From Candidatus Poribacteria bacterium (lineage in GTDB: Bacteria > Poribacteria > WGA-4E > WGA-3G), in NCBI GenBank assembly GCA_965261115.1, contig OZ253447.1:3402011-3466010 (forward strand): 64,000 nucleotides of DNA, written 5' to 3'. Shown here in pieces: positions 5,218 to 46,949 of this stretch (positions are counted from its first letter, which is position 1; every line of letters begins with the position of its first letter). Below the pieces are notes generated by a model. It was not told where the DNA came from, ran no database searches, and worked only from the letters and a program-made list of their open reading frames with translations. A program made the position numbers and the translations under genes.

Positions 5218-6405
5218 TTAGGCTAATGCCTTTTTGATGCGATCCAATCCGCGATTGATCTCTGTCAATGAGGTAGCAAAAGAGAGTCGTAGATGGTTAT
5301 CGGCCCCGAATCCATTGCCCGGCACAACGCCGACACCTGCCGAATTGAGCAGGTAATCGGTAATATCCATCGAACCTTCAATCTTCTGTCCACCGATTGT
5401 TCTGCCGTAGTGGTCAGAGAAATCGGGGAAGATGTAGAACGCGCCTTGTGGTTTGACATAACTGACACCGTTAATCTCGTCGAAACGCTGACAGATGACG
5501 TCTCGGCGTTCTTCAAACGCTTTCCGCATCTCTTCAACAGCGTCTTGCGGTTCATTCAATGCGACCACCGCAGCTTTCTGTGCAATAGATGTCGGGTTTG
5601 AAGTGCTGTGCGATTGGATACGCGACATCGCTGAGATTGCGTCTTCGGGACCCGCGGTATACCCAATCCGCCACCCCGTCATTGAGTAGGCTTTAGAGAC
5701 ACCGTTGACAACAAAGGTAATCGCTTTTGTCTCTTCGTTGAAGGAAGCCGGACTCTGATGCGTCGCATCGTCATAAAGCAGTGCCTCATAAATTTCATCG
5801 GAGATGAGGTAGACCTGATGTTTAACGGCAAGTGCAGCGATCGCTTTAAGGGTGTCCAGATCGTAGGTGGTACCGGTCGGATTGCTCGGACTGTTAACGA
5901 GGATCGCCTTTGTCTTTGCGGTTATCGCTGCTTCGACTTGATCCGGTGCCATACAGAAGTTCTGCGTCGGTGTCGTCTCGATGACGCGCGGTACTGCGCC
6001 TGCAAGTTTAATCTGTTCTGGATAACTTACCCAATACGGCGCGGCGAAGATGACCTCGTCACCCGGATCGCAGATGGCTTGTAAGATGTTATAGATGGTA
6101 TGCTTGGCACCGCAGGAGACGATAACTTCGGAGGATTGATAACTCAATCCGTTATCCCGTTTGAACTTCTCGGTGATTGCCTCTCGGAGTTCGGGGGTAC
6201 CGGGGACAGGGGTGTATTTCGTGAACCCGGCATCGAGTGCGGCGATTGCGGCGGCTTTGATATAATCGGGTGTATCAAAATCGGGTTCACCAGCCCCGAA
6301 TTTGACGACATCTACGCCATCAGCGATCAACGCATTAATCTTCGCGGTGATCGCCAAAGTGGACGATGGCGTTACATTTTGACTCCGTTGTGATAATGAG
6401 ATCAT
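5218..6405 (-). CDS. PLP-dependent aminotransferase class I (aspartate aminotransferase-like)
   Basis: Fold-type I aminotransferase motifs including the PLP lysine region SKAYSMTGWRIGY. Confidence 0.9.
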   Translation of the reverse strand: MISLSQRSQNVTPSSTLAITAKINALIADGVDVVKFGAGEPDFDTPDYIKAAAIAALDAGFTKYTPVPGTPELREAITEKFKRDNGLSYQSSEVIVSCGAKHTIYNILQAICDPGDEVIFAAPYWVSYPEQIKLAGAVPRVIETTPTQNFCMAPDQVEAAITAKTKAILVNSPSNPTGTTYDLDTLKAIAALAVKHQVYLISDEIYEALLYDDATHQSPASFNEETKAITFVVNGVSKAYSMTGWRIGYTAGPEDAISAMSRIQSHSTSNPTSIAQKAAVVALNEPQDAVEEMRKAFEERRDVICQRFDEINGVSYVKPQGAFYIFPDFSDHYGRTIGGQKIEGSMDITDYLLNSAGVGVVPGNGFGADNHLRLSFATSLTEINRGLDRIKKALA

Positions 6406-34013: not shown

Positions 34014-34107
34014 AGCATGTTAGGTGATCGGAAAATCGAAGGATTCTTCAAAGTTAAGTTGGGATATAAGTAGTTTCTATAGGAACTGTCCCTGACGCGG
34101 TCCTTGG

Positions 34108-34716
34108 TCAAAGTGTCTCCATGTCATACAATCCAATAGAGGATGGTCTATTTTTAAGCCATTCAATTACTTTATCAGCGGAACACCTAAAAAATTCCCT
34201 ATGTTCATTAATCCGGTATTGTTTAAACTTTTTATGTAATATATCTTCAAGAATTTCAGGGTATTGAGACGGAATTGAGTAGGCGATCGAAAAGGGTTCT
34301 GGAACCCCCGTTGTATAAAGTTCCTCCGCCCGTTCATGAGCAGTTTTTTCTGTCTTTCCTATTTTTATTAAACCCGGCATGGATGGGTTTGTTAAGATAT
34401 ATACACAATTCCTTTGGTCGTTTTTGTTTGTTCCAAACCTTTCCCTAATCAGACGCTTGCGCTGATTCCAGACGATAGTTTTCCCGCCGTCATTGGGATT
34501 AGGTATACCTAACATCTCTGCCAGTTGCCTATCAGGAATATGGTTAAACAGGAATAGATTGTTTTCATCCTTTTTCAGATTCATGCGTCCTAGAACATGA
34601 TATGCCGCATCAGCATTTTTATCTTGTTTTACCATGAGCTTTGCTTCTTCAAGCAGTTTTCTAAACTCTGGATTCTTGAGATTAGCTTCAATTTGGCGGT
34701 TAGTGTCTCTTGCCAT
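34108..34716 (-). CDS. T5orf172 (GIY-YIG-like) domain protein
   Basis: C-terminal CVYILTNPSMPGLIKIGKTEKTAHERAEELYTTGVPEPFSIAY matches the T5orf172/MUG113 GIY-YIG-like pattern. Confidence 0.6.
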   Translation of the reverse strand: MARDTNRQIEANLKNPEFRKLLEEAKLMVKQDKNADAAYHVLGRMNLKKDENNLFLFNHIPDRQLAEMLGIPNPNDGGKTIVWNQRKRLIRERFGTNKNDQRNCVYILTNPSMPGLIKIGKTEKTAHERAEELYTTGVPEPFSIAYSIPSQYPEILEDILHKKFKQYRINEHREFFRCSADKVIEWLKNRPSSIGLYDMETL

Positions 34717-35223
34717 AATTCTCCTTACCAGGCAGAATTTAAAGATATTACTAATGGGCGCGCAACTCGTAGAAATAGCGAGTTGGAGCTCATTCCTACA
34801 AGAAAGGGGTCTGTAATTTAAACCATTTTACTCACAATTTATTTTACTCACAATTTAAAAGTTGACAAAGCACTATTTATAGTTTGTATCAAATGACCCC
34901 ATGAGTTACACTAAAAGTAACCCAAGTTGCCACTTGCAACATGTTCACCGAGTTGATTCCTGCCATCCCAATATGCGGCACGGCTACGACGTTAGTCTCC
35001 TTAATGCTTTTTGCAATGGGTCCGTTTGGGGACCCGTTGAGTTTTGCGTGAAAGTTACTGGTCATTGATCCCATCTTTGATAGCTTGGAGTTCATCAGAA
35101 AGGTGCCATGATAAATCAGAGATCAACGGTGTTTTCGCCATAGAATCCAGCGTAAAAGAGAACTCAGGATTGCAGGCGTGCAATATTGAATACGTGACGG
35201 AAATTTCTGCTAATCTGGCGGAT

Positions 35224-35922
35224 CTAGCCTAGCAGCCTGGATATGCTCACAGGGAAGTTAAATCCATATTTGTGTACAACCGATTTAACAGTTTCTGTTA
35301 TCCATTTCTCCTTCCTAGTATATGGGGATGTGACCACTTCGTTAATTAATGTCTTAAGATCAAATTTATGGTACTGACCAATTTCACAAATATCTTGAGG
35401 GGAATGATCAGATATAAATTGGTGAGTGTCAACGATGATACGTACCTCGCGTTCAGCTCTATATACCTCTCTTTTATAGAAATACCTATGGAAATTCCGC
35501 GTATACATCTTGTTTATCTCTGATATATCTTGTGGAACTTCAAATTCATATTGATCAGTGTAATTGACTCTGCCTATAAACACGTGAGGGGATTTGGGCA
35601 GACTTTTCTTCAAATTGCCCATAGTCGTTTTTATTGCTATACCACCATTATGCAGCCTATACCGCTCCCACATTAACATTGCTTTTGGCTCACTGTGATG
35701 CCAACAATTACACAGGATGTATCTGCCGAAGTTATTAACTCGCTCTACTACCGGCTCTACTTGCGGAGGTATAGATCCTTCAAATGGATCTTCAAACTTA
35801 TCAGATCTTGTGAAAAATAAAGATTCTTTTGCTAAAATATTGACGAATTTTTCAAAACTCATGAATCTCCATAAAACATCACGGTCTTCAGGCAATTCTA
35901 TACCTGGGAGTTCTTTATGCAT
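35224..35922 (-). CDS. DUF2971 family protein
   Basis: LWRFMSFEKFVNILAKESLFFTRSDKFEDPFEG matches the DUF2971 N-terminal signature. Start at the ATG at 35922, which has an AAGGA RBS. Confidence 0.65.
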   Translation of the reverse strand: MHKELPGIELPEDRDVLWRFMSFEKFVNILAKESLFFTRSDKFEDPFEGSIPPQVEPVVERVNNFGRYILCNCWHHSEPKAMLMWERYRLHNGGIAIKTTMGNLKKSLPKSPHVFIGRVNYTDQYEFEVPQDISEINKMYTRNFHRYFYKREVYRAEREVRIIVDTHQFISDHSPQDICEIGQYHKFDLKTLINEVVTSPYTRKEKWITETVKSVVHKYGFNFPVSISRLLG

Positions 35923-35981
35923 GTAATATCCTTTCGCAACGTAATAAAAACCGTTAACTGAAAATGAATCTATCCGCAAAA

Positions 35982-36200
35982 CTACTTATTGGGTAATTGT
36001 ATGAGTCGTCGCGCGTGGGCGTTTCGCGGGCGTGCCATCATTGCAGGTCGCTGGATAGTCAGACCTGTCAACTCTTGGAGTTGGTCTACAGTTAGGTTCT
36101 TGCCGTCTCGCCATCGGAGCATCTTCTGCACCCCCTGTTGATTTTCGGTATGGTATATTTTGGCTGTCAACCTGACAACTGCCGTCACTTCATGACCCAC
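35982..36200 (-). CDS. small hypothetical protein (may be spurious)
   Basis: 72-aa ORF between the DUF2971 gene and the lipoprotein gene on the same strand. Confidence 0.25.
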   Translation of the reverse strand: MGHEVTAVVRLTAKIYHTENQQGVQKMLRWRDGKNLTVDQLQELTGLTIQRPAMMARPRNAHARRLIQLPNK

Positions 36201-36245
36201 CTTGTAGTGCGATAAACGCGGGGTCTATGATTTTCATAAGGTCTC

Positions 36246-36665
36246 CTACTTGATATTGTCGTCAAAGACACCCCCGAAATCGCCCAAGTAGGCATTCACG
36301 CGAAGGGTATACGTTGACGGTGGGTCAAACTCCATTCTCGCACCACGTAGATAAATTTTTTCATTGAGTGGTGTGAGTGTATGACGATAAACTTCCTTAT
36401 CACGATTGTAAACTACAAAATCTTTACCCTCTACATCAACTATTACGTGCGTTGGGTCAAGCGTTCCCTTTTGCCACGTAAAATAGAGATAATGTGCACC
36501 ACGTGTTTGATTGGTAAGGTTTTTAGAGAGTGCAACAGTGAATACGGACAAGGTGTCAACTTCGGGCTGTTCTTTCACGGTTTGGGCTACAGATTCTTTG
36601 ACGGGTTGATTATCTTGACAACCTAAAACTATTATCACGAGCATCAAAACGAAAATCGTTCTCAT
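36246..36665 (-). CDS. lipoprotein of unknown function
   Basis: Signal peptide with lipobox VLGC. Confidence 0.55.
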   Translation of the reverse strand: MRTIFVLMLVIIVLGCQDNQPVKESVAQTVKEQPEVDTLSVFTVALSKNLTNQTRGAHYLYFTWQKGTLDPTHVIVDVEGKDFVVYNRDKEVYRHTLTPLNEKIYLRGARMEFDPPSTYTLRVNAYLGDFGGVFDDNIK

Positions 36666-36865
36666 AATATCACCTCTAAAGCAATTTTTTTTGCTAAAAT
36701 AATTTCTAAATCAGGCGGGTCTTTCCGCCTGTTCTCCCTGCCCTAAAAATCAGTAGAATACAATATGTTACCTTATTCCCTCCTTTTGGGAGCATCTATC
36801 CATTGATAACCGCGTGATGAAATATTCCTATCCGCGGATTGCCTTTGATCAGGAAAGAGCGCAAT

Positions 36866-37054
36866 TTATTGATCGGTAGCGGTATCGTGAATCCAAACGC
36901 CGAGAGTACCGGCACCGGCAAGCCGTGTGCTATCCAGCGAGTATTGAATTTCAAATAGCCAGCCTTTACCGAGCCGTGCTATCGCGCCTTCGGGGAGATG
37001 CCATTGTAGTGAATCTTCAGCGATACTATCGTTCGAGAAAAAGAGAACCGGCAA
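36866..37054 (-). pseudogene. WD40-repeat protein fragment (single blade remnant)
   Basis: ..IQYSLDSTRLAGAGTLGVWIHD resembles one WD40 blade (FSPDGTRLASGSDGTVRLWD). Only 62 codons remain. Confidence 0.3.
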
Positions 37055-37226
37055 ACAGAGAACGGTGAATGTGAAAAAAATGTAGTTTTCATTGTTATTC
37101 TCCTTTGAAATTTATATATCCCACTGAATATACTTTTTTGACAAAATAGAAATGCTGGTCCCCATTAAGGATAGACCGGGAAGCCAATAAACATCGGATC
37201 TCCAGCCATCCTATGGTCATTTGATA

Positions 37227-39740
37227 CTATTTCAAGATTAACATCTTCCGCGTTGCGGTGAAATCGCCTGCAGTGAGGGTATAAAAATAGACACCGCTCG
37301 CGACCCTTTCACCAAATGCGTTTTTACCATCCCAATACGCTGCACGACTTCGGTGCTGATACATACCCGCTGGTTGATACCCAAGTGCCAATGCTCGCAC
37401 CAATACTCCATTTACCGAATAGATGTGCAATGTGACATCGACGGGCTTCGCCAACTGATACGGTATCCATGTTTCTGGATTAAACGGGTTCGGATAATTC
37501 GCAAGTAGTGCCGTCTCTTTCGGTATCAACGTCACGAGGAGTTTTTGTAAAAACAGGATCCCGCGTAGTGATGTTGTATCCATGAGATTCAATTGCTGTG
37601 CAGCGGAAAGCCACTGTTTGACGTCTGTAGCAGCGAGCATTTCTGAGGCTTGAGGATTTAGAGAAGGTGCGGCGGCATTATTGCCTAATGCTCCAGCAAC
37701 CAAGACGAGATCCGCAATGTTGACCTGTCCATCGCCATTGACATCTGCAGTATTCTGTCCTGTCTCGCCGAGATTTGAAGCGACTAATACCAAATCCGCA
37801 ATGTTGACAGTCCCATCACCGTTAACATCTCCTTTGAGTTTAGTGGGTTCAGTTATCTCTGCGTTTTCAATCTGAGGGAGAAATGTCTCGCCTGCTCTGT
37901 TTGAAAGCAGCACATCAGATAAGGTTAGAGTGGATGCTTTCGCTGTGATAACCTCAAAGGTAAGAGTAGCGAGGGGACCATCTCCATCACTTTCTCCGGC
38001 GAGCGATGCAGCGTTGAGTTTTACGAGATTGCCCTCCACTTTCGGCTCTACAAAGAACGCATCCGCTGGTAAAAAATCACCATTCATACCTGAAACAAAT
38101 CGGAGGGCTGTATCATCAAACTGCACGGTTGCCTGATAGCCTGCGACATTTTCGCCGTTAGCAATTTTCAGGGACAATTTGAGTTGTTGACCGATATTAG
38201 GGGACTGCACACTTGCAGGCGAGAGACTCACCGTATCTGATCGGTCCCCTGTATTGTAATCAGTAATTGATTCAACAGACGGCAACGAAACTTTGTCGTT
38301 ATTTCCTAAAAGGAAGTTAGCGATTAGTTCAGCAGCAACCTTGCCTTTAGGGTTTACCTCGTTAAAGGTTTGATAGACAATACCAATCCTTCCACGATTA
38401 CCATCCCGGACAATAACCGGATCCGCTCTGGTGGCTTGTGAGGTACCTGTATCACTCGCAAGAACCTTTTCAGCAAACCAGTCCCCGGTAAGTTCATCAA
38501 GGTGAAAGGCCCTATCGGATTTAAAATTCATAAGGCTTGGAGTAACCTCTTTGCCATCTTTCGTTACTACCATTGGGGTATTATTTTCCACCCCGAAGTC
38601 CCACATTGTGATATGTGGAATATCCATAATGGCTTGTAAAGCTTGGACATCATTATGCACGTTGCCACTGGACACATAACCAAAGTAATCACCATGGTTA
38701 AGAATAGTATTTCCGTCAGTTGATTCAATCCAATTTTCTGCCACAGAACCGTCCGGTTGACTATTAGGAGACGGGTAAATAGAAGTTGGTAGGGTCCCGT
38801 AGAGGATTAAAACATCTACGTTACCATCTGAAGTTGTTTGAAGCATCCAGTCTCTAACAGAATCTTCGGTTTGAACAATTTCGGCTTGAATACCTTCTGA
38901 AGAAAGCAATTGCTTTGTGATTTGAGATTGCCGATTGGCATCATCATGGCTTATCCAACTAACAGTCCCTGTATACATCAGAACGTTTATGTTTTCATAA
39001 GGTTTTGGAGGATCTTCTTGCAGATTGATTTTTCTGAAAATTGGACGGCTATCTAACACAATTGCGTCTTCTTTTGTCATTCGCATTCTATCACCCCAAT
39101 CTTCAGTAGTATCTCCCCAAGCTTGGACAGTTCCATTTAAAGATTCACCATTATTATAGTTGTTATGTCCCGGGTCCAGTCCGAAAGCGTGGCCCAATTC
39201 GTGTGCTACTACACTAAGATAGTGATGCGGGAAATCATCTATCATATCCATAGTTACTATTGCATTACCGCCCCATCTATCACCGTGCCATGTATGCCCC
39301 CAAGCAAAACCTCGTCCCCATTGACCATGCATTTGTAAACCGCCCAAGATAATTAAATGCACATTATCACGAGAATCCCAATTGAGATCATTGTTGAATT
39401 TGTATGGGAGTTCGGATCTAACTGAATTCCAATTGTCGTTGGCATTCGTATCATAGTGATCAGTGTTGTGTTTAGCGTTAATTGTATGTATAACAAGTTT
39501 TCCATTTTCATCTGTTTCTAATGGAAATGTTTTATCAGTAAAATCGTGTCGCGTCATTTCTGACTGATAATATTTCTGAATATCTTTCATTATTTTATCA
39601 TGGTATTCATGATCTATGTCTGGAGCATCTATTGGTTTAAAATACAGAACATGAACATCGAATTTAGCAATGGATGACAGAGACGATACTGAAATTAATA
39701 TTAGGATCAAAAACGTTAGTAGAAGTCGGAAGTGTTTCAT
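37227..39740 (-). CDS. secreted zinc metalloprotease (HEXXH zincin) with two dockerin-type repeats and T9SS-type C-terminal sorting domain
   Basis: Signal peptide from the ATG at 39740. VVAHELGHAFGLDPGH zincin motif. DVNGDGTVNIADLVLVA and DVNGDGQVNIADLVLVA dockerin repeats. C-terminal NYPNPFNPET..IYSVNGVLV..GVYFYTL matches the Por/T9SS CTD. Confidence 0.75.
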   Translation of the reverse strand: MKHFRLLLTFLILILISVSSLSSIAKFDVHVLYFKPIDAPDIDHEYHDKIMKDIQKYYQSEMTRHDFTDKTFPLETDENGKLVIHTINAKHNTDHYDTNANDNWNSVRSELPYKFNNDLNWDSRDNVHLIILGGLQMHGQWGRGFAWGHTWHGDRWGGNAIVTMDMIDDFPHHYLSVVAHELGHAFGLDPGHNNYNNGESLNGTVQAWGDTTEDWGDRMRMTKEDAIVLDSRPIFRKINLQEDPPKPYENINVLMYTGTVSWISHDDANRQSQITKQLLSSEGIQAEIVQTEDSVRDWMLQTTSDGNVDVLILYGTLPTSIYPSPNSQPDGSVAENWIESTDGNTILNHGDYFGYVSSGNVHNDVQALQAIMDIPHITMWDFGVENNTPMVVTKDGKEVTPSLMNFKSDRAFHLDELTGDWFAEKVLASDTGTSQATRADPVIVRDGNRGRIGIVYQTFNEVNPKGKVAAELIANFLLGNNDKVSLPSVESITDYNTGDRSDTVSLSPASVQSPNIGQQLKLSLKIANGENVAGYQATVQFDDTALRFVSGMNGDFLPADAFFVEPKVEGNLVKLNAASLAGESDGDGPLATLTFEVITAKASTLTLSDVLLSNRAGETFLPQIENAEITEPTKLKGDVNGDGTVNIADLVLVASNLGETGQNTADVNGDGQVNIADLVLVAGALGNNAAAPSLNPQASEMLAATDVKQWLSAAQQLNLMDTTSLRGILFLQKLLVTLIPKETALLANYPNPFNPETWIPYQLAKPVDVTLHIYSVNGVLVRALALGYQPAGMYQHRSRAAYWDGKNAFGERVASGVYFYTLTAGDFTATRKMLILK

Positions 39741-39790
39741 GAGGGTTCCGTCTGTTACATACTTAGAGTCTATCATGATTGTAAAAAACC

Positions 39791-40594
39791 TTAATCATAA
39801 TTGCTTGGTCGATGATCGCCGAGGAGTCGTCTCTGCCGAGGGCTCGCTTGGGCGAGAATGGATGCATCAAACTGAAACTTATTCAGATAGGGCGGATATT
39901 TCTGTGTAATCATCCGCATGGCATAGTGGACTTGCATGAGATAGCGGACTTCATTACTCGTATTGGCAGAGCCGCGATGCCAGACTTCGCTGCGGAAAAG
40001 CACGACATCCCCGGCATTACATAAGATACTCTCTTCTCCGCGGTTATTCCACTCGGTTGCACCGTTTGGGGAACACCCAGAGAAATGGCTGCCCGGAACA
40101 AACTTCGTCGGTCCCAATTCTTCATACATATCGTTGAGATAGTAATGGGCAGTGGTGATGAAGATTGGGATTTTGACGCGCGGATCAGAACGAACGTCTG
40201 CCGGTAGAGAGATTGGCAGCCAATCGGTATGTAATCCCTGATCTGGACGGTCGGGTCCTGTCAGCCACGAATGCATACCGATGCAGTGGCAATCCTCGCC
40301 GTGCGCCGCCTCGGCAACTTCAATAACAGGCGATCTGTCAAGGTATTGGAGATACAACGGATCCCGATTAAACGAGTTGCTGATGAGCTTGTGAAGGAAT
40401 GCGTTGCCATTTTGCGGGGTTTCATCCCGGTCATGAGATTCTGGGATCGCCTCTAATCGATCCATAGTCGCTCGTAATTCAGCGATTTCATCGGCGTCAA
40501 GCACGCTGGGGAAATAGACATAACCATCCCTTTCGAGTGCTTCAACTTGACTTTCTAAGTCGTCGTATGCAACGAGTGAAAGAGCTTTCGCCAC
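39791..40594 (-). CDS. PhyH-family Fe(II)/2OG dioxygenase (tandem paralog 1)
   Basis: GLHTDWLP HxD motif. GTG start at 40594 with an AAGGAG RBS. Highly similar to the adjacent gene. Confidence 0.8.
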   Translation of the reverse strand: MAKALSLVAYDDLESQVEALERDGYVYFPSVLDADEIAELRATMDRLEAIPESHDRDETPQNGNAFLHKLISNSFNRDPLYLQYLDRSPVIEVAEAAHGEDCHCIGMHSWLTGPDRPDQGLHTDWLPISLPADVRSDPRVKIPIFITTAHYYLNDMYEELGPTKFVPGSHFSGCSPNGATEWNNRGEESILCNAGDVVLFRSEVWHRGSANTSNEVRYLMQVHYAMRMITQKYPPYLNKFQFDASILAQASPRQRRLLGDHRPSNYD

Positions 40595-40662
40595 TTTTGG
40601 TACTCCTTTCAGATAGCTGACAACCAAGCCCACAAGGACACACCTCAAATTATGTGTCACCT

Positions 40663-41466
40663 TTAATCATAATTGCTTGGCCGATGATCGCCGAGGAGCC
40701 GTCGCTGTTGAGGATTCGCTTGGGCAAGGATCGATGCGTCAAACTGAAACTTATTCAGGTAAGGCGGGTATTTCTGTGTAATCATCCGTTGTGCATAATG
40801 GACTTGCAAGAGGTAACGGGTTTCGTCAGCCGTATTGGCGGAACCCCGGTGCCAGACTTCACTGCGGAAAAGCACCACGTCCCCAGCATTGCATAAGATA
40901 CTTTCTTCCGTTCTGCCTTTCCACTCGGTTTGCCCGTTCGGAGAACACCCAGAGTAATGACTACCTGGGACAAACTTCGTCGGTCCCAGTGCTTCATACA
41001 TATCGTTGAGATAGTAGTGGGCAGTGGTGATGAAGATTGGGACTTTGACGCGTGGGGCAGAACGGATATCTGCTGGCAGCGCAATTGGTAGCCAATCGGT
41101 ATGTAACCCCTGATCCGGACGTCCCGGTCCTGTCAACCACGATTGCATCCCGATACAATGACAATCCTCGCCGTGCGTCGCTTCAGCAACTTCAATAATC
41201 GGTGATTTGTCAAGGAATTCGAGATAGAGTGGATCTCGATTAAACGAGTTGTTGATGATTTTATTGAGGAATCCGCCGCCATTTTGAGGCGTTTGGTGTC
41301 GATCCAAGCACTCTGGGATCGTTTCTAATCGATCCATAGTCGCTCGCAACTCAGCGACTTCCTCAGCATCAAGCACGTTGGGGAAATAGACATAACCATC
41401 TCTTTCCAGTGCTTCCACTTGGCTTTCTAAATCGTTGTATGCAATAAGTGAAAGGGCTTTCGCCAT
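40663..41466 (-). CDS. PhyH-family Fe(II)/2OG dioxygenase (tandem paralog 2)
   Basis: Same motifs. ATG at 41466 with an AAGGAG RBS. Near-identical length (267 aa) and sequence to paralog 1. Confidence 0.8.
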   Translation of the reverse strand: MAKALSLIAYNDLESQVEALERDGYVYFPNVLDAEEVAELRATMDRLETIPECLDRHQTPQNGGGFLNKIINNSFNRDPLYLEFLDKSPIIEVAEATHGEDCHCIGMQSWLTGPGRPDQGLHTDWLPIALPADIRSAPRVKVPIFITTAHYYLNDMYEALGPTKFVPGSHYSGCSPNGQTEWKGRTEESILCNAGDVVLFRSEVWHRGSANTADETRYLLQVHYAQRMITQKYPPYLNKFQFDASILAQANPQQRRLLGDHRPSNYD

Positions 41467-41625
41467 TTTTGGTACTCCTTTCGGACGATAGCAATAGGTC
41501 AACGCTTCTCGCTATGATATGTTAACCGCAACGAAGTTGTCAATGAAAAAATATGTCGGAGTTGGATTTCAAGCGTCCGGATTTCCTTTAAGCTCCACCA
41601 CAAAGCGATTGCCTCAATACCTCAG

Positions 41626-43792
41626 TTATACTGCCTTGAGTTTTCGCCATAGAGTTGTACGACTGATCCCCAAACGTTGTGCAGCGAGCTGTGGCTTCCC
41701 ATCAGACGCCTCCAAAACTCTTTGAACCAATTCACGTTCCAATGCGGCAAGTGGGTTGCTTTCCCTGAGTGCCTGCGTAACAATATCATCTCTCGACGAA
41801 ATAAGGTCGAGCGGTAAATGTTGCTTTTCAATGCTTCCACCCTGACATTTGACGAATGCATGCTCTATAATATTTTCCAACTCTCGCACATTGCCGGGGT
41901 AGGTATAATCCATTAAGATTTCAAGGGCATCGGGTGCGATCCGATGAATAGATTTTTGGGTCTGTTGACTGAATTTTTCAATGAAGTGTTCAATGAGGAG
42001 TGGAATGTCATCTCGTCTTTCACGGAGTGGCGGCGGCGTAATCGGGACGACGTTGAGCCTGTAGTATAAATCCTCGCGGAAACGTCCAGCATCAATTTCT
42101 GTTTTCAGGATTCGATTTGTCGCTGCAATGACGCGGACATCTACTTGCTTTGTATCAGTTGAACCAACCATTTCATATTCGCCTTCTTGCAAGACGCGAA
42201 GCAACTTTGCTTGTGTACTGAGACTTAACTCGCCGATTTCATCAAGAAAAAGGGTACCACCGTCCGCAGCTGCAAATCGTCCTTCACGCGTTGTGATGGC
42301 ATCGGTAAACGCACCTTTGACATGTCCAAAGAGTTCACTCTCCAGCAGATTATCAACTAAGCCTGCGCAATTGACGCGAATGAAGGGCTTTTTTGCCCGA
42401 TCGCTATTGTAGTGGATCGCGTGAGCAATCGGTTCTTTGCCGGTACCCGCTTTCGCCTTGAATCAGGACAGTTGTTTTCATGGGGGCGACGAGTTGAATC
42501 AACTCGAAAATCTCCTGCATTTTCCGATTTTTTCCGATGAGATTCCCAAACGAATGGCGCGCCTTGAGTTGGGCACTGAGTGCCTTTACCTCCGAAAGAT
42601 CACGGGCGAATCCCTGGATAAATTCCCGCTCGTCATGCACAATTGGGACCGCGCGAATTTCCAATGGTAAGCGGCTTTTATTTTTATGCGACAGCTCCGT
42701 TTGGAAAGTAATCGGGTTCTGTTGACCGAGGCCTTTAAGCATTTCGTCGGTGTTTTGAAATTCATCGGGAGGCATTAGGTCGCGCAGCGACAGATTGACG
42801 AGTTCTTGGTGTGTGTAACCAAGCCAGGCACAGAAATTTTCGTTTACGGTAACAAATGCTTCTGTCAGTGATGGACAAATGAAGATTGCGTCATTGGACA
42901 TCTCAAAGAGTGTGCGGTATCGTTTGTTGTTTTCGGCGAGTTTGTCTGTCCAATTCCCTTTTTCAATCAGAATTGAGAGTTGCCCAGCAATCGGTTTCAG
43001 TCGTCTAATATGTGCCTCGGAGAATGCTCGGGGTTGTTCACTGGTGAAAAAGACGACCCCAATCGGTTTACCTTGCACCTTGAGCGGAAGTGTTAGATTT
43101 GAGCGCATCCCTTCTTGAACCATGAGTCTTGTCCAGTGCGTCGGTCTTTTTGCGAGAGTTTCCTTAAAATCGTCGATAATTCGTGCTTCGCCTGAATTGA
43201 GAATAGGTTCAAGACTTGACCCTTTGATTTTTGCTGAGAACCCGTTGTCCAGCAAGATTTTTCTGTTGGATTTCGTTTTGCACTGCACTAAGTCACCGGA
43301 GAATTCGTCAATGAGTGCGATGCCTAACCGGTTATGTGGCACTATGCGCTGAAGTCCAGCGTGGATATTCTCAAAGACTTCATCGAGCGTCTTTCCAAGT
43401 TGAATCTGCTCAAGGATTCCATAGATATGATCAGCTTCAACAGTTTGGTTAAAAACAGTATCTTCGAGTCTATCACTCATTGGTGCTTCAGGAGTGACTG
43501 CGATCTGAAGGGTATCTCCATCAAGCCGGAGCGGATAGGTTCGGACATTCGGCGTCGTAATAGGGCATCCACTTTTCAGATCGTATTGCCAACCGTGCCA
43601 GGGGCAGGTAACAACTTCACCCTCCAGTGTTCCTTCGTTGAGTGGTCCTCCCAGATGTGGACAGGCATTATTGATAGCATAAAATCTTTTACCCGTGTTG
43701 AAGATTGCGATGCTTTTATTGTCTAATTTGATGACAATGCTCTGTCCCGGTTCGATTGCAGATGTTTTAACGACATTCATCCACTTCACCAT
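41626..43792 (-). pseudogene. sigma54-dependent transcriptional activator with N-terminal Rieske [2Fe-2S] domain (Rieske-GAF-PAS-AAA+-HTH), +1 frameshift inside Walker A near 42444
   Basis: Rieske CPHLGG..CPWHGW. GAF and PAS regions. The Walker A reads GESG then shifts frame to [12 protein letters not shown].. (expected GESGTGKE). The downstream frame carries GAFTDA, the ESELFGH-type motif, RVIAATN, a Fis-type HTH ([14 protein letters not shown]). Confidence 0.75.
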
Positions 43793-43872
43793 CTTTCCTC
43801 CACGCGTTAGCAGGATTTGTTACCTATAGGTCATAGATTATCACATGATGGAGCAAATGTCAAGAATTTTGT

Positions 43873-43902
43873 TTCATTTATGAACATTGTTTCATTTATG
43901 AA
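43873..43902. promoter_or_regulatory. two copies of the palindrome TTTCATTTATGAA 17 bp apart; candidate enhancer (UAS) sites
   Basis: Direct reading of the sequence. They lie about 150 bp upstream of the -24/-12 promoter. Confidence 0.4.
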
Positions 43903-43946
43903 GTAATCTTTATTTTTGTGATTCTTGGGCAATTCGTTTAGATTTT

Positions 43947-43982
43947 GTTTCAGATTTGAAATGCGGCAGTAAAATCTGAAAC
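43947..43982. promoter_or_regulatory. 11-bp inverted repeat GTTTCAGATTT-N14-AAATCTGAAAC; candidate activator binding site
   Basis: Direct reading of the sequence. It is centred about 85 bp upstream of the -24 element. Confidence 0.35.
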
Positions 43983-44039
43983 TTCACTTTAACCCATAAA
44001 ACACTGATATATTTCAATTGTATATAGGTTCTGAATGTT

Positions 44040-44055
44040 TGGCACGAAACTTGCA
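44040..44055 (+). promoter_or_regulatory. sigma54 (-24/-12) promoter TGGCACGAAACTTGCA
   Basis: Exact match to the TGGCAC-N5-TTGCA consensus, about 78 nt upstream of the cupin gene start. Confidence 0.6.
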
Positions 44056-44132
44056 ATGCAATAATGTGTAAGCAGGACTTAATTGCTAAACACTTGGCTT
44101 CTAAACACTTCTAACCTACGAAAGGGATTATA

Positions 44133-44522
44133 ATGAACACAGCATTTGACAGACCTTACAGACCTGTGGATCTGAACACATCACTCACCGAGGCATTTTC
44201 ACTTACCTCTATGGCTGAACAGTTGATGGAAGAAGCTACATCTGCCACTTCTGGTAGAGCTTCGTTGACATTAGCCCGTGGAGATGAAATGACTGTTATC
44301 CTGATTACCTTAAAAGCAGAATACACGCTTGACGAACATCCAGCGCCTGCCGCTGCGACGGTTGTTATGCTTAGTGGCAGCATTATCTTTAAAACCAGTA
44401 CTAAAAATATCACGATCGTCCAAGGTGAATCGGTGACCTTTACGGCTGACATTCTTCACTCAGTTCACGCGAACGAGGATAGTACATTTCTTGTCATTAT
44501 CGGTGGCAAGCATGCTGAGTGA
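44133..44522 (+). CDS. cupin-domain protein
   Basis: Small beta-barrel protein with a cupin-like pattern (..LSGSIIFKT..TIVQGESVTF..HSVHANED). First gene downstream of the sigma54 promoter. Confidence 0.55.
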   Translation: MNTAFDRPYRPVDLNTSLTEAFSLTSMAEQLMEEATSATSGRASLTLARGDEMTVILITLKAEYTLDEHPAPAAATVVMLSGSIIFKTSTKNITIVQGESVTFTADILHSVHANEDSTFLVIIGGKHAE

Positions 44523-44618: not shown

Positions 44619-45029
44619 ATGAACCGTTATCTTGAACACGCCAATATGACCGTGAATGACCTTGAAAAAGCGATCGATTTTCTAACAACTGCCTTTCCAG
44701 ATTTTCGAGTCAGGGGCGGTGGCGATAACGCCAATGGAACGAAATGGTGTCATCTTGGGACTGACGATTTTTATATTGCGCTCTCAGATCGGAAGCATCC
44801 CTTCACGGGTGACCGTAAGGGGAGTTACGTAAACCATCTCGGTTTTGCTGTTGATGACGCTGAAGGTATCCGAGAACGCTTGCTCGCTGCGGGATATAAA
44901 GAAGGGTATAAGGTTGGACCGCATCCCCACCGAAAACGAATCTATTTCGTTTATGCGGACGGTTTTGAATGGGAGTTCGTCGAATACTTCACGGATGACC
45001 CAGCAAAACGGAACGACTATTCACAATGA
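44619..45029 (+). CDS. VOC-family (glyoxalase/bleomycin resistance/dioxygenase) protein
   Basis: LEHANMTVNDLEKAIDFL and HLGFAVDD motifs typical of the VOC fold. Confidence 0.75.
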   Translation: MNRYLEHANMTVNDLEKAIDFLTTAFPDFRVRGGGDNANGTKWCHLGTDDFYIALSDRKHPFTGDRKGSYVNHLGFAVDDAEGIRERLLAAGYKEGYKVGPHPHRKRIYFVYADGFEWEFVEYFTDDPAKRNDYSQ

Positions 45030-45131: not shown

Positions 45132-46949
45132 TCAATCTTCATCAATAGACCAGGTGCAGTTGATATGACTGTCCTTGTAAAATTGCTTGAGTGCTGGCTT
45201 ATCAAACCACAGTTGAATTTCTTTACCCACAATATGTCCAACGCTGCTCACCTTGAGGTAAAGACCACCCGCTGTCCACTCAGGCATGATGTTATATTGT
45301 CCGGTCTGTGCGGCGTAGAGGCTGAGCAGTGCCAACGGCTCCATCGCGTCGAGATTCGCGGTTCTATGGGTATCCTGCAGAAGTTCAGCCACACTTCTCC
45401 CTTCATGTCCCTCTTGTAGTTCCGGTTTATCCATGACCTTGCTGTGGAGGATAAAGTCATCTTCAAGCGTGAAAAGACCGCTATCGGGGTGTTGTCTACC
45501 TTGCAGCAGATTATCGCCTATCCGTTCCGCCATCGCCAGAAATTCTGCCTTCGGTTCTATTCGGTACAGATCCACCAATGCGAAGATATAAGCAGGTTCC
45601 AAGGTGGTTGTGTCAAAATTCAAGGACGGCGGCGAGTTTTTATCGGTACCGATGTCTCCGATCCCAAAGGCTTTAAACATCATGCGTAGATAGTCCCTAA
45701 ACGCACTTTTGCCACCAGAAACCCTATACCCACGGGCACAGACGGAAGTAAAGAGCGGCGTAATGTTTTGTGGTAAGAATGCGCCGCCTTCTTTCGCACC
45801 AAAGTATAACTTTGCATCTCTGAAAGGTCCCTTTATCCGAAAGCCTGTGAGATCCGTCCCATCAATAACGATGCTTTTCAATGTATTGTTTTTCGGATCG
45901 TAGGAAGCGTCTAAGAAATCGATGATGTGTTGTTCAACCGCTGCTTTGATGTGCGCCATTTCGCCGATACGTCCGTATTTTTCGGCGTTTTCTACGATGG
46001 TCAGCATCCCCATCATCTGCGTAATGGTGTGGTTCAACTGGTTGCCGACATAGACCCTCGGTTCGGTCGCTTGCGGATATTTTCTGCCGAAGACGTTCAA
46101 CCCGCGTTTGCCACTTTGCGGATGCACCAGATTGGGCCAGATCCCAGTCTCTGGAGCTCGCTGCTTTATAATCAGATTTAAAAGGCGTTCCGCCCAGATT
46201 CGCGGTGCCTCTTCCTGCTTTTGGTAGCCCAAGCTGTAACCTGCGTAAGCGAGATCCAATGCCACACTGATGAACGAGAGATCGCCACTGATTACAGGGT
46301 CTTTGTATCCATTCCAAGGTCTGTTCCAAGTATTAGCATGATCAACCTGCTTTTTGAAATCACCGTGTCGGTTGTAGTGTAAGGCATCCCAATCCTTGAT
46401 ATTCGCTTCCCAAATCCCTTTCATCAGCATCTCACCGCGATCGGGATTCACGGCTCTCAGCAATTCCCAGTACGGATATACATCCTCTATTTCGTGGACA
46501 ACGCCTTTCATGCCGTACCGATTACCAGTCACCAAATCTACATAGCCGTGTCCACCCCAATGCAGAACGCCACTCTCTGGATACCAGTAGTGGTTGAACA
46601 TATATTCGGCGGCTTCTCCCGCGGCATGGACGTATTTGCCGTCCCCAGTGAACTGACTTAAAGAGGCAAGCAACCGCATCAAGTTCTGCTGATTCTGAAA
46701 GAAACTCCAGACCGCTGGTTTCGGTTCGGTGCCTGTGCGGTGAGATGTCATAGATCTGGGTGCTTTCACATGGTCGGTATGGAGGCAATCCGCAAAGAGC
46801 GGCATCTCTTTGCCACTATATCTATCTCTCCCGTATTGGATAGCTGTCCCTGCGAAGAGACTGGCAGCTTTTAAGAAGCGGTTATTCTCTATTTCGTCCA
46901 GATGCAATCGGTTTCTGCCAATCCATCGATCCAATCGATTCATGCTCAT
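45132..46949 (-). CDS. hypothetical protein (605 aa), possibly a carbohydrate-active alpha/alpha-barrel enzyme
   Basis: Long ORF in which I recognise no family. The 4-nt overlap with the following membrane-protein gene suggests co-transcription. Confidence 0.6.
   Translation of the reverse strand: MSMNRLDRWIGRNRLHLDEIENNRFLKAASLFAGTAIQYGRDRYSGKEMPLFADCLHTDHVKAPRSMTSHRTGTEPKPAVWSFFQNQQNLMRLLASLSQFTGDGKYVHAAGEAAEYMFNHYWYPESGVLHWGGHGYVDLVTGNRYGMKGVVHEIEDVYPYWELLRAVNPDRGEMLMKGIWEANIKDWDALHYNRHGDFKKQVDHANTWNRPWNGYKDPVISGDLSFISVALDLAYAGYSLGYQKQEEAPRIWAERLLNLIIKQRAPETGIWPNLVHPQSGKRGLNVFGRKYPQATEPRVYVGNQLNHTITQMMGMLTIVENAEKYGRIGEMAHIKAAVEQHIIDFLDASYDPKNNTLKSIVIDGTDLTGFRIKGPFRDAKLYFGAKEGGAFLPQNITPLFTSVCARGYRVSGGKSAFRDYLRMMFKAFGIGDIGTDKNSPPSLNFDTTTLEPAYIFALVDLYRIEPKAEFLAMAERIGDNLLQGRQHPDSGLFTLEDDFILHSKVMDKPELQEGHEGRSVAELLQDTHRTANLDAMEPLALLSLYAAQTGQYNIMPEWTAGGLYLKVSSVGHIVGKEIQLWFDKPALKQFYKDSHINCTWSIDED

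What the first reader, a model, noticed from the sequence alone, without database searches (positions are those of the whole stretch)
43868..44133. Complete sigma54 regulatory module: palindromic UAS sites + perfect -24/-12 promoter driving a cupin-VOC operon, divergent from the Rieske-bEBP gene
TGGCACGAAACTTGCA (44040-44055) matches the sigma54 consensus exactly. 85-170 bp upstream lie two copies of the palindrome TTTCATTTATGAA (43873-43885 and 43890-43902) and an 11-bp inverted repeat GTTTCAGATTT/AAATCTGAAAC (43947-43982). That is the expected geometry for enhancer-bound bEBP hexamers. The adjacent bEBP gene starts 80 bp to the left on the opposite strand. The likely regulon is the cupin (44133-44522) and VOC/glyoxalase-like (44619-45029) genes, small enzymes often involved in aromatic or toxic-metabolite handling. 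Together with the Rieske sensor this forms a testable regulator-sensor-target unit.
Basis: seen in the sequence. Interest (0 to 1): 0.55.

Follow-up and report, generated by a model that had tools for sequence, protein, structure and literature searches.

The report
Sigma-54 promoter with three-site enhancer
This is a genuine sigma-54 on-switch in a sponge-symbiont (Poribacteria) genome, a promoter plus three conserved binding boxes that always accompany a neighbouring activator gene carrying an unusual iron-sulfur sensor domain, but in this particular sequence the activator gene is broken by a one-base insertion.

Summary
TGGCACGAAACTTGCA (44040-44055) is the only exact -24/-12 match in the window. 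The upstream repeats are real but are better described as three copies of one 18-bp dyad box, TGTTTCA-N4-TGAAACA (43870, 43888, 43946), plus a half-site.

In 13 orthologous Poribacteria loci (regulator identity 94% down to 43%) the same layout recurs. Box 1 and box 2 are 18 bp apart, and box 3 lies 85-88 bp (sometimes 98-112 bp) upstream of the GG of the promoter. This holds whatever the downstream gene is. The boxes therefore belong to the Rieske-GAF-PAS-AAA+-HTH activator, much like the three enhancer sites of NorR.

Three corrections apply:
- In this window the activator gene carries a +1 frameshift (GG to GGG) in Walker A. Four near-identical assemblies have it intact.
- The cupin is a lineage-specific insertion. 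VOC is the conserved target in close relatives, and a ~600-aa Rieske protein is the ancestral target.
- The activator's sigma-54 contact loop reads GAFTDA, the change that makes NorR constitutive.

I could not check rpoN directly. Overall this is a classical system type with an undescribed Rieske-type input domain, of moderate interest.

The parts
41626..43792 (-). Rieske-GAF-PAS-AAA+(Sigma54_activat)-lid-HTH_8 enhancer-binding protein gene, split into two ORFs in this window (43792-42404 and 42204-41626)
   Evidence: Pfam domains on the two ORFs. Three-frame translation shows one continuous protein across a single frame change. Intact 720-721-aa orthologues exist in L001-L004. tblastn gives aa 1-449 in frame -1 and aa 444-721 in frame -2.
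42446..42448 (-). Frameshift site: GGG run on the coding strand where four relatives have GG, inside the Walker A codons (GESG|TGKE)
   Evidence: DNA alignment shows window AGCGGGTACC against AGC-GGTACC in L001, L002, L003 and L006.
43837..43845 (-). Inferred extended -10 (TGTGATAAT on the - strand) of the bEBP gene's own sigma-70-type promoter
   Evidence: Sequence. ATTATCA is conserved in the clade at 80% identity and above. The consensus scanner did not call it because the spacer is 15 nt. Inferred only.
43858..43863 (-). Inferred -35 (TTGACA on the - strand) of the bEBP promoter, always 6-9 bp from box 1
   Evidence: GTCAA is conserved at this position in 10 orthologous loci and moves together with boxes 1-2 when insertions occur.
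43870..43887 (.). Box 1 (TGTTTCATTTATGAACAT), distal enhancer site, centred about -187 from the predicted start
43888..43905 (.). Box 2 (TGTTTCATTTATGAAGTA), 18 bp from box 1, centred about -169
   Evidence: The 18-bp box 1 to box 2 spacing holds in 12 of 13 loci.
43946..43963 (.). Box 3 (TGTTTCAGATTTGAAATG), promoter-proximal enhancer site, centred 87 bp upstream of the GG of the -24 element (about -111)
   Evidence: It is a perfect palindrome TGTTTCA-N4-TGAAACA in L085, L086 and L093.
43972..43982 (.).
   Evidence: It is conserved only within the clade at 88% identity and above and shows no compensatory changes.
43996..44020 (.). Block ATAAAACACTGATATATTTCAATTG between box 3 and the promoter, conserved in lineages at 80% identity and above. 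It is a possible architectural-protein site of unknown role.
   Evidence: Alignments. I found no convincing IHF consensus by eye. It is not conserved in distant orthologues.
44040..44055 (+). Sigma-54 promoter TGGCACGAAACTTGCA (GG 44041-42, GC 44053-54). The predicted start is near 44066.
   Evidence: GG and GC are invariant in 14 aligned orthologous regions.
44066..44132 (+). Predicted ~67-nt leader, unstructured and indel-prone
   Evidence: RNA fold z = -0.24. No credible Rfam hit. Strain-specific indels and a 20-bp duplication lie just after the -12 element.
44133..44522 (+). Small single-domain cupin (129 aa), first gene of the sigma-54 unit in this lineage only
   Evidence: Cupin_2 at E 5e-4, below the Pfam cut-off. 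AlphaFold model pLDDT 82. Foldseek top hits are uncharacterised cupins 1yhf and 5j4f. The gene is lineage-specific at this position.
44619..45029 (+). VOC/glyoxalase-fold protein (136 aa), the conserved target gene in the clade at 88% identity and above
   Evidence: Pfam Glyoxalase at 2e-9. Weak match to GloA. VOC is present beside the regulator in L085, L170 and L171, with a conserved ribosome-binding site CAGGAGGATT-AAAAATG. No promoter or terminator was called between cupin and VOC.

Best explanation
The 43,8xx-44,0xx intergenic region is a divergent control region of the classical bEBP/sigma-54 type.

Proposed mechanism:
- RNA polymerase carrying sigma-54 binds TGGCAC-N5-TTGCA (44040-44055) as a closed complex.
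- Dimers of the neighbouring Rieske-GAF-PAS-AAA+-HTH_8 activator bind three 18-bp dyad boxes, consensus TGTTTCA-N4-TGAAACA, at 43870, 43888 and 43946.
- Three dimers supply the six subunits of the AAA+ ring.
- The ring loops to the promoter about 87 bp downstream of box 3 and uses ATP to open it.
- This transcribes cupin plus VOC.

Boxes 1-2 sit immediately upstream of the activator's own inferred sigma-70 promoter (TTGACA / TGtGATAAT on the other strand), so the same sites probably also autoregulate the activator.

The input is presumably the redox or ligand state of the N-terminal ferredoxin-like Rieske [2Fe-2S] domain, relayed through GAF and PAS.

What is shown: the sequence elements, their conservation, their fixed geometry, and their co-inheritance with the regulator gene regardless of target gene.

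What is inferred: binding, hexamer assembly, looping, autoregulation, and the nature of the signal.

In this window the activator ORF is interrupted by a +1 G in Walker A. If that base is real, the switch is dead in this strain and the operon should be silent.
For: - Exact -24/-12 element, unique in the window.
- Three clustered boxes (7 hits against 2.1 expected, 0 of 100 shuffles).
- In 13 orthologous loci (regulator 94% to 43% identical) boxes and promoter recur with fixed geometry. Box 1 to box 2 is 18 bp in 12 of 13 loci. Box 3 centre to GG is 85-88 bp in 10 of the 14 regions compared (the window plus 13 loci), 98.5-100 bp in 3 and 112 bp in 1. The downstream gene varies between cupin, M24 peptidase, VOC, a Rieske ~600-aa protein, an SDR and a secreted protein.
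- Of 28 box matches (2 mismatches or fewer) in 1.11 Mb of Poribacteria DNA, 22 lie in these intergenic regions.
- Footprint: 49 of 70 columns are invariant inside the elements against 40 of 188 outside, Fisher p = 1e-12. Across the full range only the box half-sites, GG/GC and GTCAA stay conserved.
- Natural insertions of 177-320 bp fall between box 2 and box 3, or between the bEBP ATG and its promoter. None falls within the box 1-2 pair or between box 3 and the promoter.
- Cupin homologues located elsewhere lack both the regulator and a sigma-54 promoter.
- The regulator has Sigma54_activat, AAA lid and HTH_8 domains, and its HTH helix is at least 90% conserved among orthologues.
- Sigma-54-type promoters are enriched in unrelated Poribacteria DNA, 6 against about 0.85 expected, three of them beside other bEBP genes.
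- Precedent: NorR uses three dyad sites, a divergent regulator gene, and three dimers forming a hexamer (PMC2831303).
Against: - In this window the activator gene is frameshifted in Walker A.
- rpoN was not found in any fetched DNA and was not checked genome-wide.
- The sigma-54 contact loop is GAFTDA rather than GAFTGA, although the same change in NorR is competent for open-complex formation (PMC2941729).
- In distant orthologues the promoter match degrades to GG-N10-GC with TCGC at -12 (L174, L091, L175). One locus, L092, does not fit the geometry.
- I refined the box extents on the same alignments used for the footprint statistic.
- There is no expression or binding data of any kind.
Confidence: 0.8

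Rival explanations
1. Division of labour. Only box 3, with its half-site, is the enhancer for the sigma-54 promoter. Boxes 1-2 are mainly an operator through which the regulator controls its own sigma-70 promoter.
For: GTCAA, the -35 on the bEBP strand, is always 6-9 bp from box 1. Boxes 1-2 stay with it when 177-bp and 286-bp insertions separate them from box 3 (L170, L086). They also stay with it when about 320 bp is inserted between the bEBP ATG and its promoter (L171, L087). Box 3 keeps a fixed distance to the -24 element throughout.
Against: Enhancers work at variable distance, so separation does not exclude a role for boxes 1-2. Three dimer sites match the hexamer stoichiometry shown for NorR. 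Box 2 to box 3 spacing falls into discrete classes of 58, 67-70, 80 and 91 bp, roughly one helical turn apart, which suggests the three sites cooperate. This reading is not exclusive of the main explanation.
Confidence: 0.3
2. In this particular strain the module is a recent relic. The +1 G is a real mutation, no functional activator is made, and the sigma-54 promoter is silent, so cupin and VOC are effectively switched off.
For: The single-base insertion is absent from four relatives. All 13 other genes shared with L002 are intact in the window, so the assembly is not generally indel-ridden. The lesion hits the essential Walker A motif.
Against: The insertion lies in a G run, a typical base-calling error site. 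Both halves remain 97-99% identical to intact orthologues with no further damage. The cis elements and the cupin are perfectly preserved. No read-level data are available.
Confidence: 0.35
3. The boxes are bound by some other transcription factor, for example a global regulator, and merely coincide with the bEBP locus.
For: There is no binding data. The HTH_8 recognition helix resembles that of unrelated bEBPs, so specificity cannot be read from sequence.
Against: The boxes are essentially confined to regulator-adjacent regions, 22 of 28 matches in 1.11 Mb. Three of the six others are one conserved coding site inside the bEBP gene itself. The boxes follow the regulator across changes of target gene and across GC content (L088).
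Confidence: 0.07
4. The promoter match and the repeats are chance features of an AT-rich spacer.
For: The spacer is 32-37% GC. At 3 mismatches or fewer the full 18-bp pattern is not significantly enriched window-wide, 9 against 4.7 expected. An exact -24/-12 match occurs in 15% of shuffled windows.
Against: The elements and their spacings are conserved across 13 loci down to 43% regulator identity, including a high-GC genome.
Confidence: 0.01

Closest known systems
NorR-norVW of Escherichia coli (sigma-54 activator with three enhancer sites)
   Same: The bEBP gene is divergently transcribed. There are three dyad-symmetric sites upstream of a -24/-12 promoter, matching three dimers forming one hexamer. 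The regulator has an N-terminal metal-centre sensor that includes a GAF domain. The target is a small detoxification-type operon (PMC2831303).
   Different: The site consensus is TGT-N12-ACA (TGTTTCA-N4-TGAAACA), not GT-N7-AC. The input module is Rieske+GAF+PAS, not a single non-haem-iron GAF. The NCBIfam NorR score of 344 is below the 476 cut-off. No IHF site was identified. The natural loop is GAFTDA, the equivalent of the constitutive NorR G266D.
NifA and its UAS TGT-N10-ACA
   Same: It is a GAF-containing bEBP, and its dyad site begins with TGT and ends with ACA. NifA is the best-scoring NCBIfam model.
   Different: The spacing is N12, not N10. The NifA score of 383 is below the 528.85 cut-off. 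There are no nif genes nearby, and a Rieske domain is present.
NtrC-glnAp2 type enhancers
   Same: Fis-type HTH dimers bind 17-18-bp inverted repeats about 100-190 bp upstream, and activation works by looping.
   Different: There is no receiver domain or partner kinase. There are three sites rather than two strong sites plus weak ones.
ThnA3 / ThnY / ThnR of Sphingopyxis granuli (a Rieske-type ferredoxin used as a regulatory redox signal)
   Same: A ferredoxin-type Rieske module reports electron flow to a transcriptional activator (PMC4814904). The sensor domain here is most similar to the same class of dioxygenase ferredoxins.
   Different: There the Rieske protein is a separate polypeptide acting through ThnY on a LysR-type activator at sigma-70 promoters. 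Here the domain is fused to a sigma-54 activator. The function here is not shown.

Membership tests
Sigma-54 (-24/-12) promoter | GG and GC dinucleotides separated by 10 bp within TGGCAC-N5-TTGCW | tested here: met
   TGGCACGAAACTTGCA at 44040-44055, an exact match.
Sigma-54 (-24/-12) promoter | Correct orientation and distance upstream of a gene, conserved in orthologous regions | tested here: met
   It lies 77 nt before the cupin ATG. GG and GC are invariant in 14 aligned regions.
Sigma-54 (-24/-12) promoter | rpoN encoded in the same genome | not tested
   No RpoN-box peptide was found in the window or in about 1.7 Mb of fetched loci. Only indirect support exists: multiple bEBP genes and an excess of -24/-12 motifs in Poribacteria DNA.
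Sigma-54 (-24/-12) promoter | Transcription start about 12 nt after the GC, dependent on the activator | not testable with these tools
   This needs 5'-end mapping or reconstitution.
Bacterial enhancer-binding protein (bEBP) | AAA+ Sigma54_activat domain with an intact Walker A | tested here: not met
   In the window the domain is split by a +1 frameshift at GESG|TGKE. The feature is met in the intact 720-721-aa orthologues in L001-L004.
Bacterial enhancer-binding protein (bEBP) | GAFTGA sigma-54 contact loop | tested here: inconclusive
   The loop is GAFTDA in the window protein and in all listed orthologues at 80% identity and above. It is GAFTGA, GAYTGA, GAFSGA, GSYTGA or GAFTSA in more distant ones. 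The identical change in NorR (G266D) still forms open complexes.
Bacterial enhancer-binding protein (bEBP) | C-terminal Fis-type HTH (HTH_8) | tested here: met
   PF02954 at E 7e-12. The helix [13 protein letters not shown] is at least 90% conserved.
Upstream activator sequence (enhancer) of a bEBP | Dyad-symmetric sites about 80-200 bp upstream of the -24/-12 element | tested here: met
   Box centres lie at about -111, -169 and -187, with 7-bp arms and a 4-bp spacer.
Upstream activator sequence (enhancer) of a bEBP | Sites co-occur with the regulator gene across orthologues, independent of the target gene | tested here: met
   This holds in 13 loci with at least six different downstream genes. 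22 of 28 motif matches in 1.11 Mb are beside the regulator.
Upstream activator sequence (enhancer) of a bEBP | Physical binding by the regulator and a requirement for activation | not testable with these tools
   This needs EMSA or footprinting and reporter mutagenesis.
NorR (equivalog NF003451) | Whole-protein score above the curated cut-off, and GT-N7-AC sites | tested here: not met
   The score of 344.4 is below 476. The boxes are TGT-N12-ACA.
NifA (TIGR01817) | Whole-protein score above the curated cut-off, and a TGT-N10-ACA UAS | tested here: not met
   The score of 383.1 is below 528.85. The spacing is N12, not N10. The NifA UAS consensus is from my own knowledge.
Rieske [2Fe-2S] domain | Pfam match and CxH...CxxH ligand set | tested here: met
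   PF00355 at E 1.6e-19. C44, H46, C63 and H66 are invariant in 11 orthologues at 100-47% identity. The closest solved relatives are dioxygenase ferredoxins. Cluster binding itself is untested.
Cupin superfamily (metal-dependent) | Cupin beta-barrel fold | tested here: met
   Model pLDDT 82.3. Foldseek E 1.5e-8 to 1yhf. Profile hit to 5j4g at 1.3e-8.
Cupin superfamily (metal-dependent) | Canonical HxH...E / ...H metal-binding motifs | tested here: not met
   Motif 1 reads E68-H69-P-A, with a single His. Only H69 and H109 are invariant (and the sequence). The motif definition is from my own knowledge.
Glyoxalase I (GloA equivalog NF050074) | Score above the curated cut-off | tested here: not met
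   The score of 20.8 is below 165. Only general VOC-fold membership holds (PF00903 at 2e-9).

The most novel reading that the evidence does not exclude
The N-terminal ferredoxin-like Rieske [2Fe-2S] domain is a genuine redox or electron-flow sensor fused to a sigma-54 activator. This input type is not described in any paper I could search.

The family originally controlled a partner protein that carries a homologous Rieske domain (36% identity), a fused analogue of the ThnA3-ThnY feedback circuit.

In the clade containing this window, the target was swapped for VOC, cupin or M24 genes. At the same time the sigma-54 contact loop changed to GAFTDA. In NorR this substitution abolishes GAF-mediated repression, which implies that control in this clade has moved to another step, such as assembly on the three boxes or regulator abundance.
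Probability: 0.35. Interest if true: 0.6.

Novelty: new variant of a known kind. Interest (0 to 1): 0.4.

Why it matters
The cis-regulatory logic is textbook: a sigma-54 promoter, an enhancer and a divergent activator gene. Its value lies in being an unusually clean, phylogenetically footprinted example in an uncultivated sponge-symbiont phylum, with a defined 18-bp operator, fixed geometry and natural insertion 'experiments'.

The less ordinary part is the regulator. Its Rieske-type ferredoxin domain is fused to GAF-PAS-AAA+-HTH. The family is confined to a few dozen Poribacteria-type sequence clusters. It has no counterpart in the searchable literature. In this clade it also naturally carries the GAFTDA loop that makes NorR constitutive.

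If the Rieske domain senses redox state, it adds a new Fe-S input class to sigma-54 signalling. It would also provide a compact, reconstitutable part set (regulator, three boxes, promoter) for testing that idea in E. coli.

Tried and rejected
1. I used the cupin as an anchor for orthologous promoters. 74 of 80 loci turned out to be non-syntenic cupins with no regulator and no sigma-54 promoter.
2. The metagenome scan with the sensor-region alignment returned only 4 full-length relatives. The rest were small stand-alone Rieske proteins.
3. My first promoter scan returned nothing because of an indexing bug in my own script. It was fixed.
4. I rejected a hairpin or cruciform reading of the 11-bp inverted repeat. 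The arms change without compensation in L085, L170 and L086.
5. I looked by eye for an IHF site between box 3 and the promoter. A block is conserved in close lineages (43996-44020) but has no convincing WATCAANNNNTTR match, so I make no claim.
6. I rejected a leader RNA element. Rfam hits were only noise and the fold z-score is -0.24.
7. I rejected a defence-system association. The PADLOC hits are generic AAA+ similarity.
8. Functional naming of the targets failed. The cupin gets no NCBIfam hit and only uncharacterised structural neighbours. The VOC is only weakly GloA-like. The cupin has no conserved neighbours elsewhere.
9. For the ancestral ~600-aa Rieske target, only the N-terminal domain is recognisable.
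10. For rpoN, a regex search for the RpoN box in all fetched DNA found nothing, and two literature searches found nothing usable.
11. The sigma-70 scanner did not call the inferred bEBP promoter because of its 15-nt spacer. That promoter rests on conservation only.
Full report
**1. What is in the sequence**

The region 43793-44132 is a 340-bp AT-rich spacer (32-37% GC). It lies between a minus-strand regulator gene (ATG at 43792) and a plus-strand cupin ORF (44133-44522). A VOC/glyoxalase-fold ORF follows at 44619-45029.

TGGCACGAAACTTGCA is at 44040-44055 as reported. It is the only match in the 64-kb window to TGGCAC-N5-TTGCW, even with one mismatch allowed. An exact TGGCAC-N5-TTGC is expected 0.18 times per window.

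The repeats are better described differently. The repeating unit is TGTTTCA-N4-TGAA, with three exact copies at 43870, 43888 and 43946. With up to one mismatch there are 7 hits against 2.1 expected, and 0 of 100 shuffles reach that. Extended to 18 bp, these are imperfect versions of the palindrome TGTTTCA-N4-TGAAACA. The '11-bp inverted repeat' is the left half of box 3 paired with a downstream half-site (43972-43982).

**2. The regulator gene is broken in this window**

Pfam places Rieske, GAF, PAS and the first 32 residues of Sigma54_activat on ORF 43792-42404. The rest of Sigma54_activat, the AAA lid and HTH_8 fall on ORF 42204-41626.

Three-frame translation shows one protein interrupted by a single frame change inside Walker A: GESG | [11 protein letters not shown]. 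Alignment with four relatives shows the cause. The window has AGCGGGTACC where the others have AGC-GGTACC.

The same gene is an intact 721-aa ORF in four assemblies that encode an identical cupin. The window is about 94% identical to those assemblies at the DNA level, so it is a distinct strain. All 13 other genes shared with L002 read through in one frame in the window.

The lesion is therefore isolated. It is either a very recent inactivating mutation or a single homopolymer miscall. I cannot tell which.

**3. Host and relatives**

Homologues of the cupin and the regulator carry Candidatus Poribacteria labels. Full-length Rieske-GAF-PAS-AAA+-HTH orthologues run from 95% to about 51% identity.

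An exhaustive HMMER pass over 1.84 billion cluster representatives, using the 462-aa N-terminal ORF, returned only one representative in the best 150 that matched across residues 2-450 in a single stretch (P0167, 51% identity). The others listed were short N-terminal fragments and unrelated multi-PAS/GAF proteins. The family is narrow.

**4. Comparative test of the cis elements**

*Negative control.* Eighty loci anchored on cupin homologues showed that cupins at 60-77% identity in other Poribacteria species have no Rieske-bEBP, no VOC neighbour and no sigma-54 promoter. Only the near-identical lineage (L001-L006) has them.

*Positive test.* I fetched loci anchored on the regulator and oriented them like the window. 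The table gives regulator identity and the divergent gene at each locus.

| Locus | Regulator identity | Divergent gene(s) |
|---|---|---|
| L085 | 93% | M24/creatinase-type peptidase + VOC |
| L170 | 91% | VOC + 161-aa protein |
| L171 | 88% | VOC |
| L086 | 80% | ~600-aa Rieske protein |
| L172 | 72% | ~600-aa Rieske protein |
| L173 | 68% | ~600-aa Rieske protein |
| L087 | 67% | 86-aa ORF + ~600-aa Rieske protein |
| L174 | 64% | SDR |
| L091 | 58% (N-terminal region) | secreted protein of unknown function |
| L175 | 57% | ~600-aa Rieske protein |
| L088/L089 | 53% | 319-aa protein + ~600-aa Rieske protein |
| L092 | 51% (N-terminal region) | Rieske protein |
| L093 | 43% (N-terminal region) | SDR |

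Thirteen orthologous loci keep the same architecture despite these different targets:
- Box 1 and box 2 are 18 bp apart centre to centre (19 bp in one locus).
- Box 3 is a perfect TGTTTCA-N4-TGAAACA in L085, L086 and L093.
- A GG-N10-GC promoter has its GG 85-88 bp from the centre of box 3 in 10 of the 14 regions compared (the window plus 13 loci), 98.5-100 bp in 3 and 112 bp in 1.
- Box 2 to box 3 spacing falls into classes of 58, 67-70, 80 and 91 bp. The steps are about one helical turn.
- Two loci carry large insertions at that position (177 bp in L170, 286 bp in L086).
- L171 and L087 carry insertions between the regulator's ATG and its promoter.
- No locus has an insertion inside the box 1-2 pair or between box 3 and the promoter.

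L092 has one good box but does not fit the geometry.

*Statistics.*
- In 1.11 Mb of Poribacteria DNA, 22 of 28 matches to the 18-bp box (2 mismatches or fewer) lie in these regulator-adjacent spacers. Three of the remaining six are one conserved coding site inside the regulator gene.
- In five lineages at 80% identity and above, 49 of 70 alignment columns inside the elements are invariant against 40 of 188 outside (odds ratio 8.6, Fisher p = 1e-12). One caveat is that I refined the box extents on these same alignments.
- Across the whole 43-100% range, the only conserved columns are the box half-sites, the GG and GC of the promoter, and a GTCAA next to box 1.

**5. The regulator's own promoter**

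GTCAA reads TTGAC(A) on the regulator strand (43858-63). It is always 6-9 bp from box 1 and travels with boxes 1-2. With TGtGATAAT (43837-45) it forms a plausible extended -10 promoter with a 15-nt spacer. The consensus scanner did not call it.

This places boxes 1-2 at about -49 and -67 of the regulator's own promoter, which suggests autoregulation. That is inference. It also motivates the rival reading in which boxes 1-2 and box 3 divide the labour.

**6. The transcription unit**

No sigma-70-like promoter was called on the plus strand, and no terminator was called between the sigma-54 promoter and the end of VOC. The next gene, a Pectate_lyase_2 family protein, is convergent. The unit is therefore most likely cupin plus VOC.

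The ~67-nt leader is unstructured. It has no credible Rfam hit and is indel-prone between strains, including a 20-bp tandem duplication in L002 and L004.

VOC keeps its own strong ribosome-binding site, CAGGAGGATT-AAAAATG, in the window, L085, L170 and L171. VOC is therefore the conserved target of the clade at 88% identity and above. The cupin (this lineage) and the M24 peptidase (L085) are later insertions between promoter and VOC.

The ~600-aa Rieske protein that partners most more distant orthologues is absent from the window. Its Rieske domain is 36% identical to the regulator's own. Its C-terminal ~480 residues match nothing.

**7. The proteins**

*Sensor domain.* The Rieske domain has all four cluster ligands (C44, H46, C63, H66) invariant across orthologues. 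It most resembles soluble Rieske ferredoxins of ring-hydroxylating dioxygenases, such as NahAb (E 2e-14), CarAc and BphF.

*Family placement.* The regulator scores below every NCBIfam equivalog cut-off. NifA scores 383 against a cut-off of 529, and NorR 344 against 476.

*Sigma-54 contact loop.* The loop is GAFTDA in the window protein and in every listed orthologue at 80% identity and above. More distant members have GAFTGA, GAYTGA, GAFSGA, GSYTGA or GAFTSA. In NorR the same change (G266D) retains sigma-54 contact and open-complex formation but fully escapes repression by the GAF domain (PMC2941729). The loop therefore does not argue against sigma-54 dependence, and perfect -24/-12 elements are retained in exactly this clade. 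It does imply that N-terminal control may work differently here.

*Targets.* The cupin folds confidently (pLDDT 82). Its closest structures are uncharacterised, and it lacks the canonical HxH motif. VOC is only weakly GloA-like. No specific chemistry can be assigned to either target.

**8. Does the host use sigma-54?**

The support is indirect:
- Several unrelated bEBP genes occur in the fetched Poribacteria loci.
- Source annotations call homologues 'sigma 54-interacting'.
- There are six perfect TGGCAC-N5-TTGCW motifs in 0.89 Mb of unrelated Poribacteria DNA, against about 0.85 expected and 1 for a reversed control. Three of them are beside other bEBP genes.

**9. Comparison with known systems**

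The closest working analogue is NorR-norVW. It has a divergent regulator gene and three dyad sites, all required, interpreted as three dimers templating one hexamer (PMC2831303). This regulator is not a NorR or a NifA by score or by site. The site here is TGT-N12-ACA, against GT-N7-AC for NorR and TGT-N10-ACA for NifA.

I found no paper describing a bEBP with a Rieske domain. The nearest concept is ThnA3, a stand-alone Rieske ferredoxin that passes a redox signal to the ThnY/ThnR regulators (PMC4814904).

**10. Verdict**

The cis-regulatory module is an ordinary kind of thing, documented here unusually well by comparative evidence. The regulator's input domain, and its natural GAFTDA loop, are what make it a new variant rather than simply another member.

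Noticed in passing
window 42446-42448 (- strand GGG), within the bEBP gene 41626-43792: A single extra G in the Walker A codons splits the activator gene. Four relatives have GG. All 13 other genes shared with L002 are intact in the window.
   Followed up: yes
window about 42310-42293 (- strand, codons for GAFTDA); proteins P0121-P0138: The sigma-54 contact loop is GAFTDA in this clade and GAFTGA-like in more distant orthologues. The same substitution in NorR (G266D) gives signal-independent activity.
   Followed up: partly
L086 (between box 2 and box 3, ~286 bp), L170 (~177 bp), L171 (~320 bp between the bEBP ATG and its promoter): Independent insertions lie inside the control region. The L171 insert carries a long inverted repeat (GGAACCGAGTGAAACCCAAC ... 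GTTGGGTTTCACTCGGTTC) and looks like a miniature transposable element. All three insertions spare the box 1-2 pair and the interval from box 3 to the promoter.
   Followed up: partly
L071 (VXZK01000256.1), about 5443-6270: Regulator residues 538-721 directly abut cupin residues 40-129. This is either a deletion removing the whole control region and both gene starts, or a misassembly.
   Followed up: no
L002 and L004, immediately downstream of the -12 element (aligned to window ~44056-44075): A 20-bp tandem duplication (TGTATAAGCAGGACTTAAT) sits at the predicted transcription start region in some strains.
   Followed up: no
L086 3576-5417, L172 467-2311, L173 1559-3406, L087 3386-5233, L175 2007-3824, L088 2619-4388: A conserved ~590-615-aa protein with an N-terminal ferredoxin-like Rieske domain and a ~480-aa C-terminal region matches no Pfam, NCBIfam or PDB sequence. 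It is the usual divergent partner of this regulator outside the VOC clade.
   Followed up: partly
L034 ~1431, L044 ~780, L063 ~1102 (all - strand): The identical perfect sigma-54 motif TGGCACGGGGCTTGCT recurs in three different Poribacteria genomes near other bEBP genes. This suggests a second conserved sigma-54 regulon in the phylum.
   Followed up: no
window 39791-41502 (-) and 45132-46949 (-): Two tandem PhyH-family dioxygenase paralogues lie just downstream of the regulator gene, and a Pectate_lyase_2 gene lies convergent to VOC. PhyH copies flank the regulator in L001-L003, L085 and L170 as well. Co-regulation was not examined.
   Followed up: no
window 34014-39790: A stretch of about 5.8 kb, including an 849-aa dockerin-type protein (37227-39776), is present in the window but not colinear with L001 or L002. 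This is a strain-specific insertion or rearrangement next to the PhyH genes.
   Followed up: no
window 43996-44020: The block ATAAAACACTGATATATTTCAATTG between box 3 and the promoter is conserved in lineages at 80% identity and above but not beyond. It may be an architectural-protein site, but no clear IHF consensus is present.
   Followed up: partly
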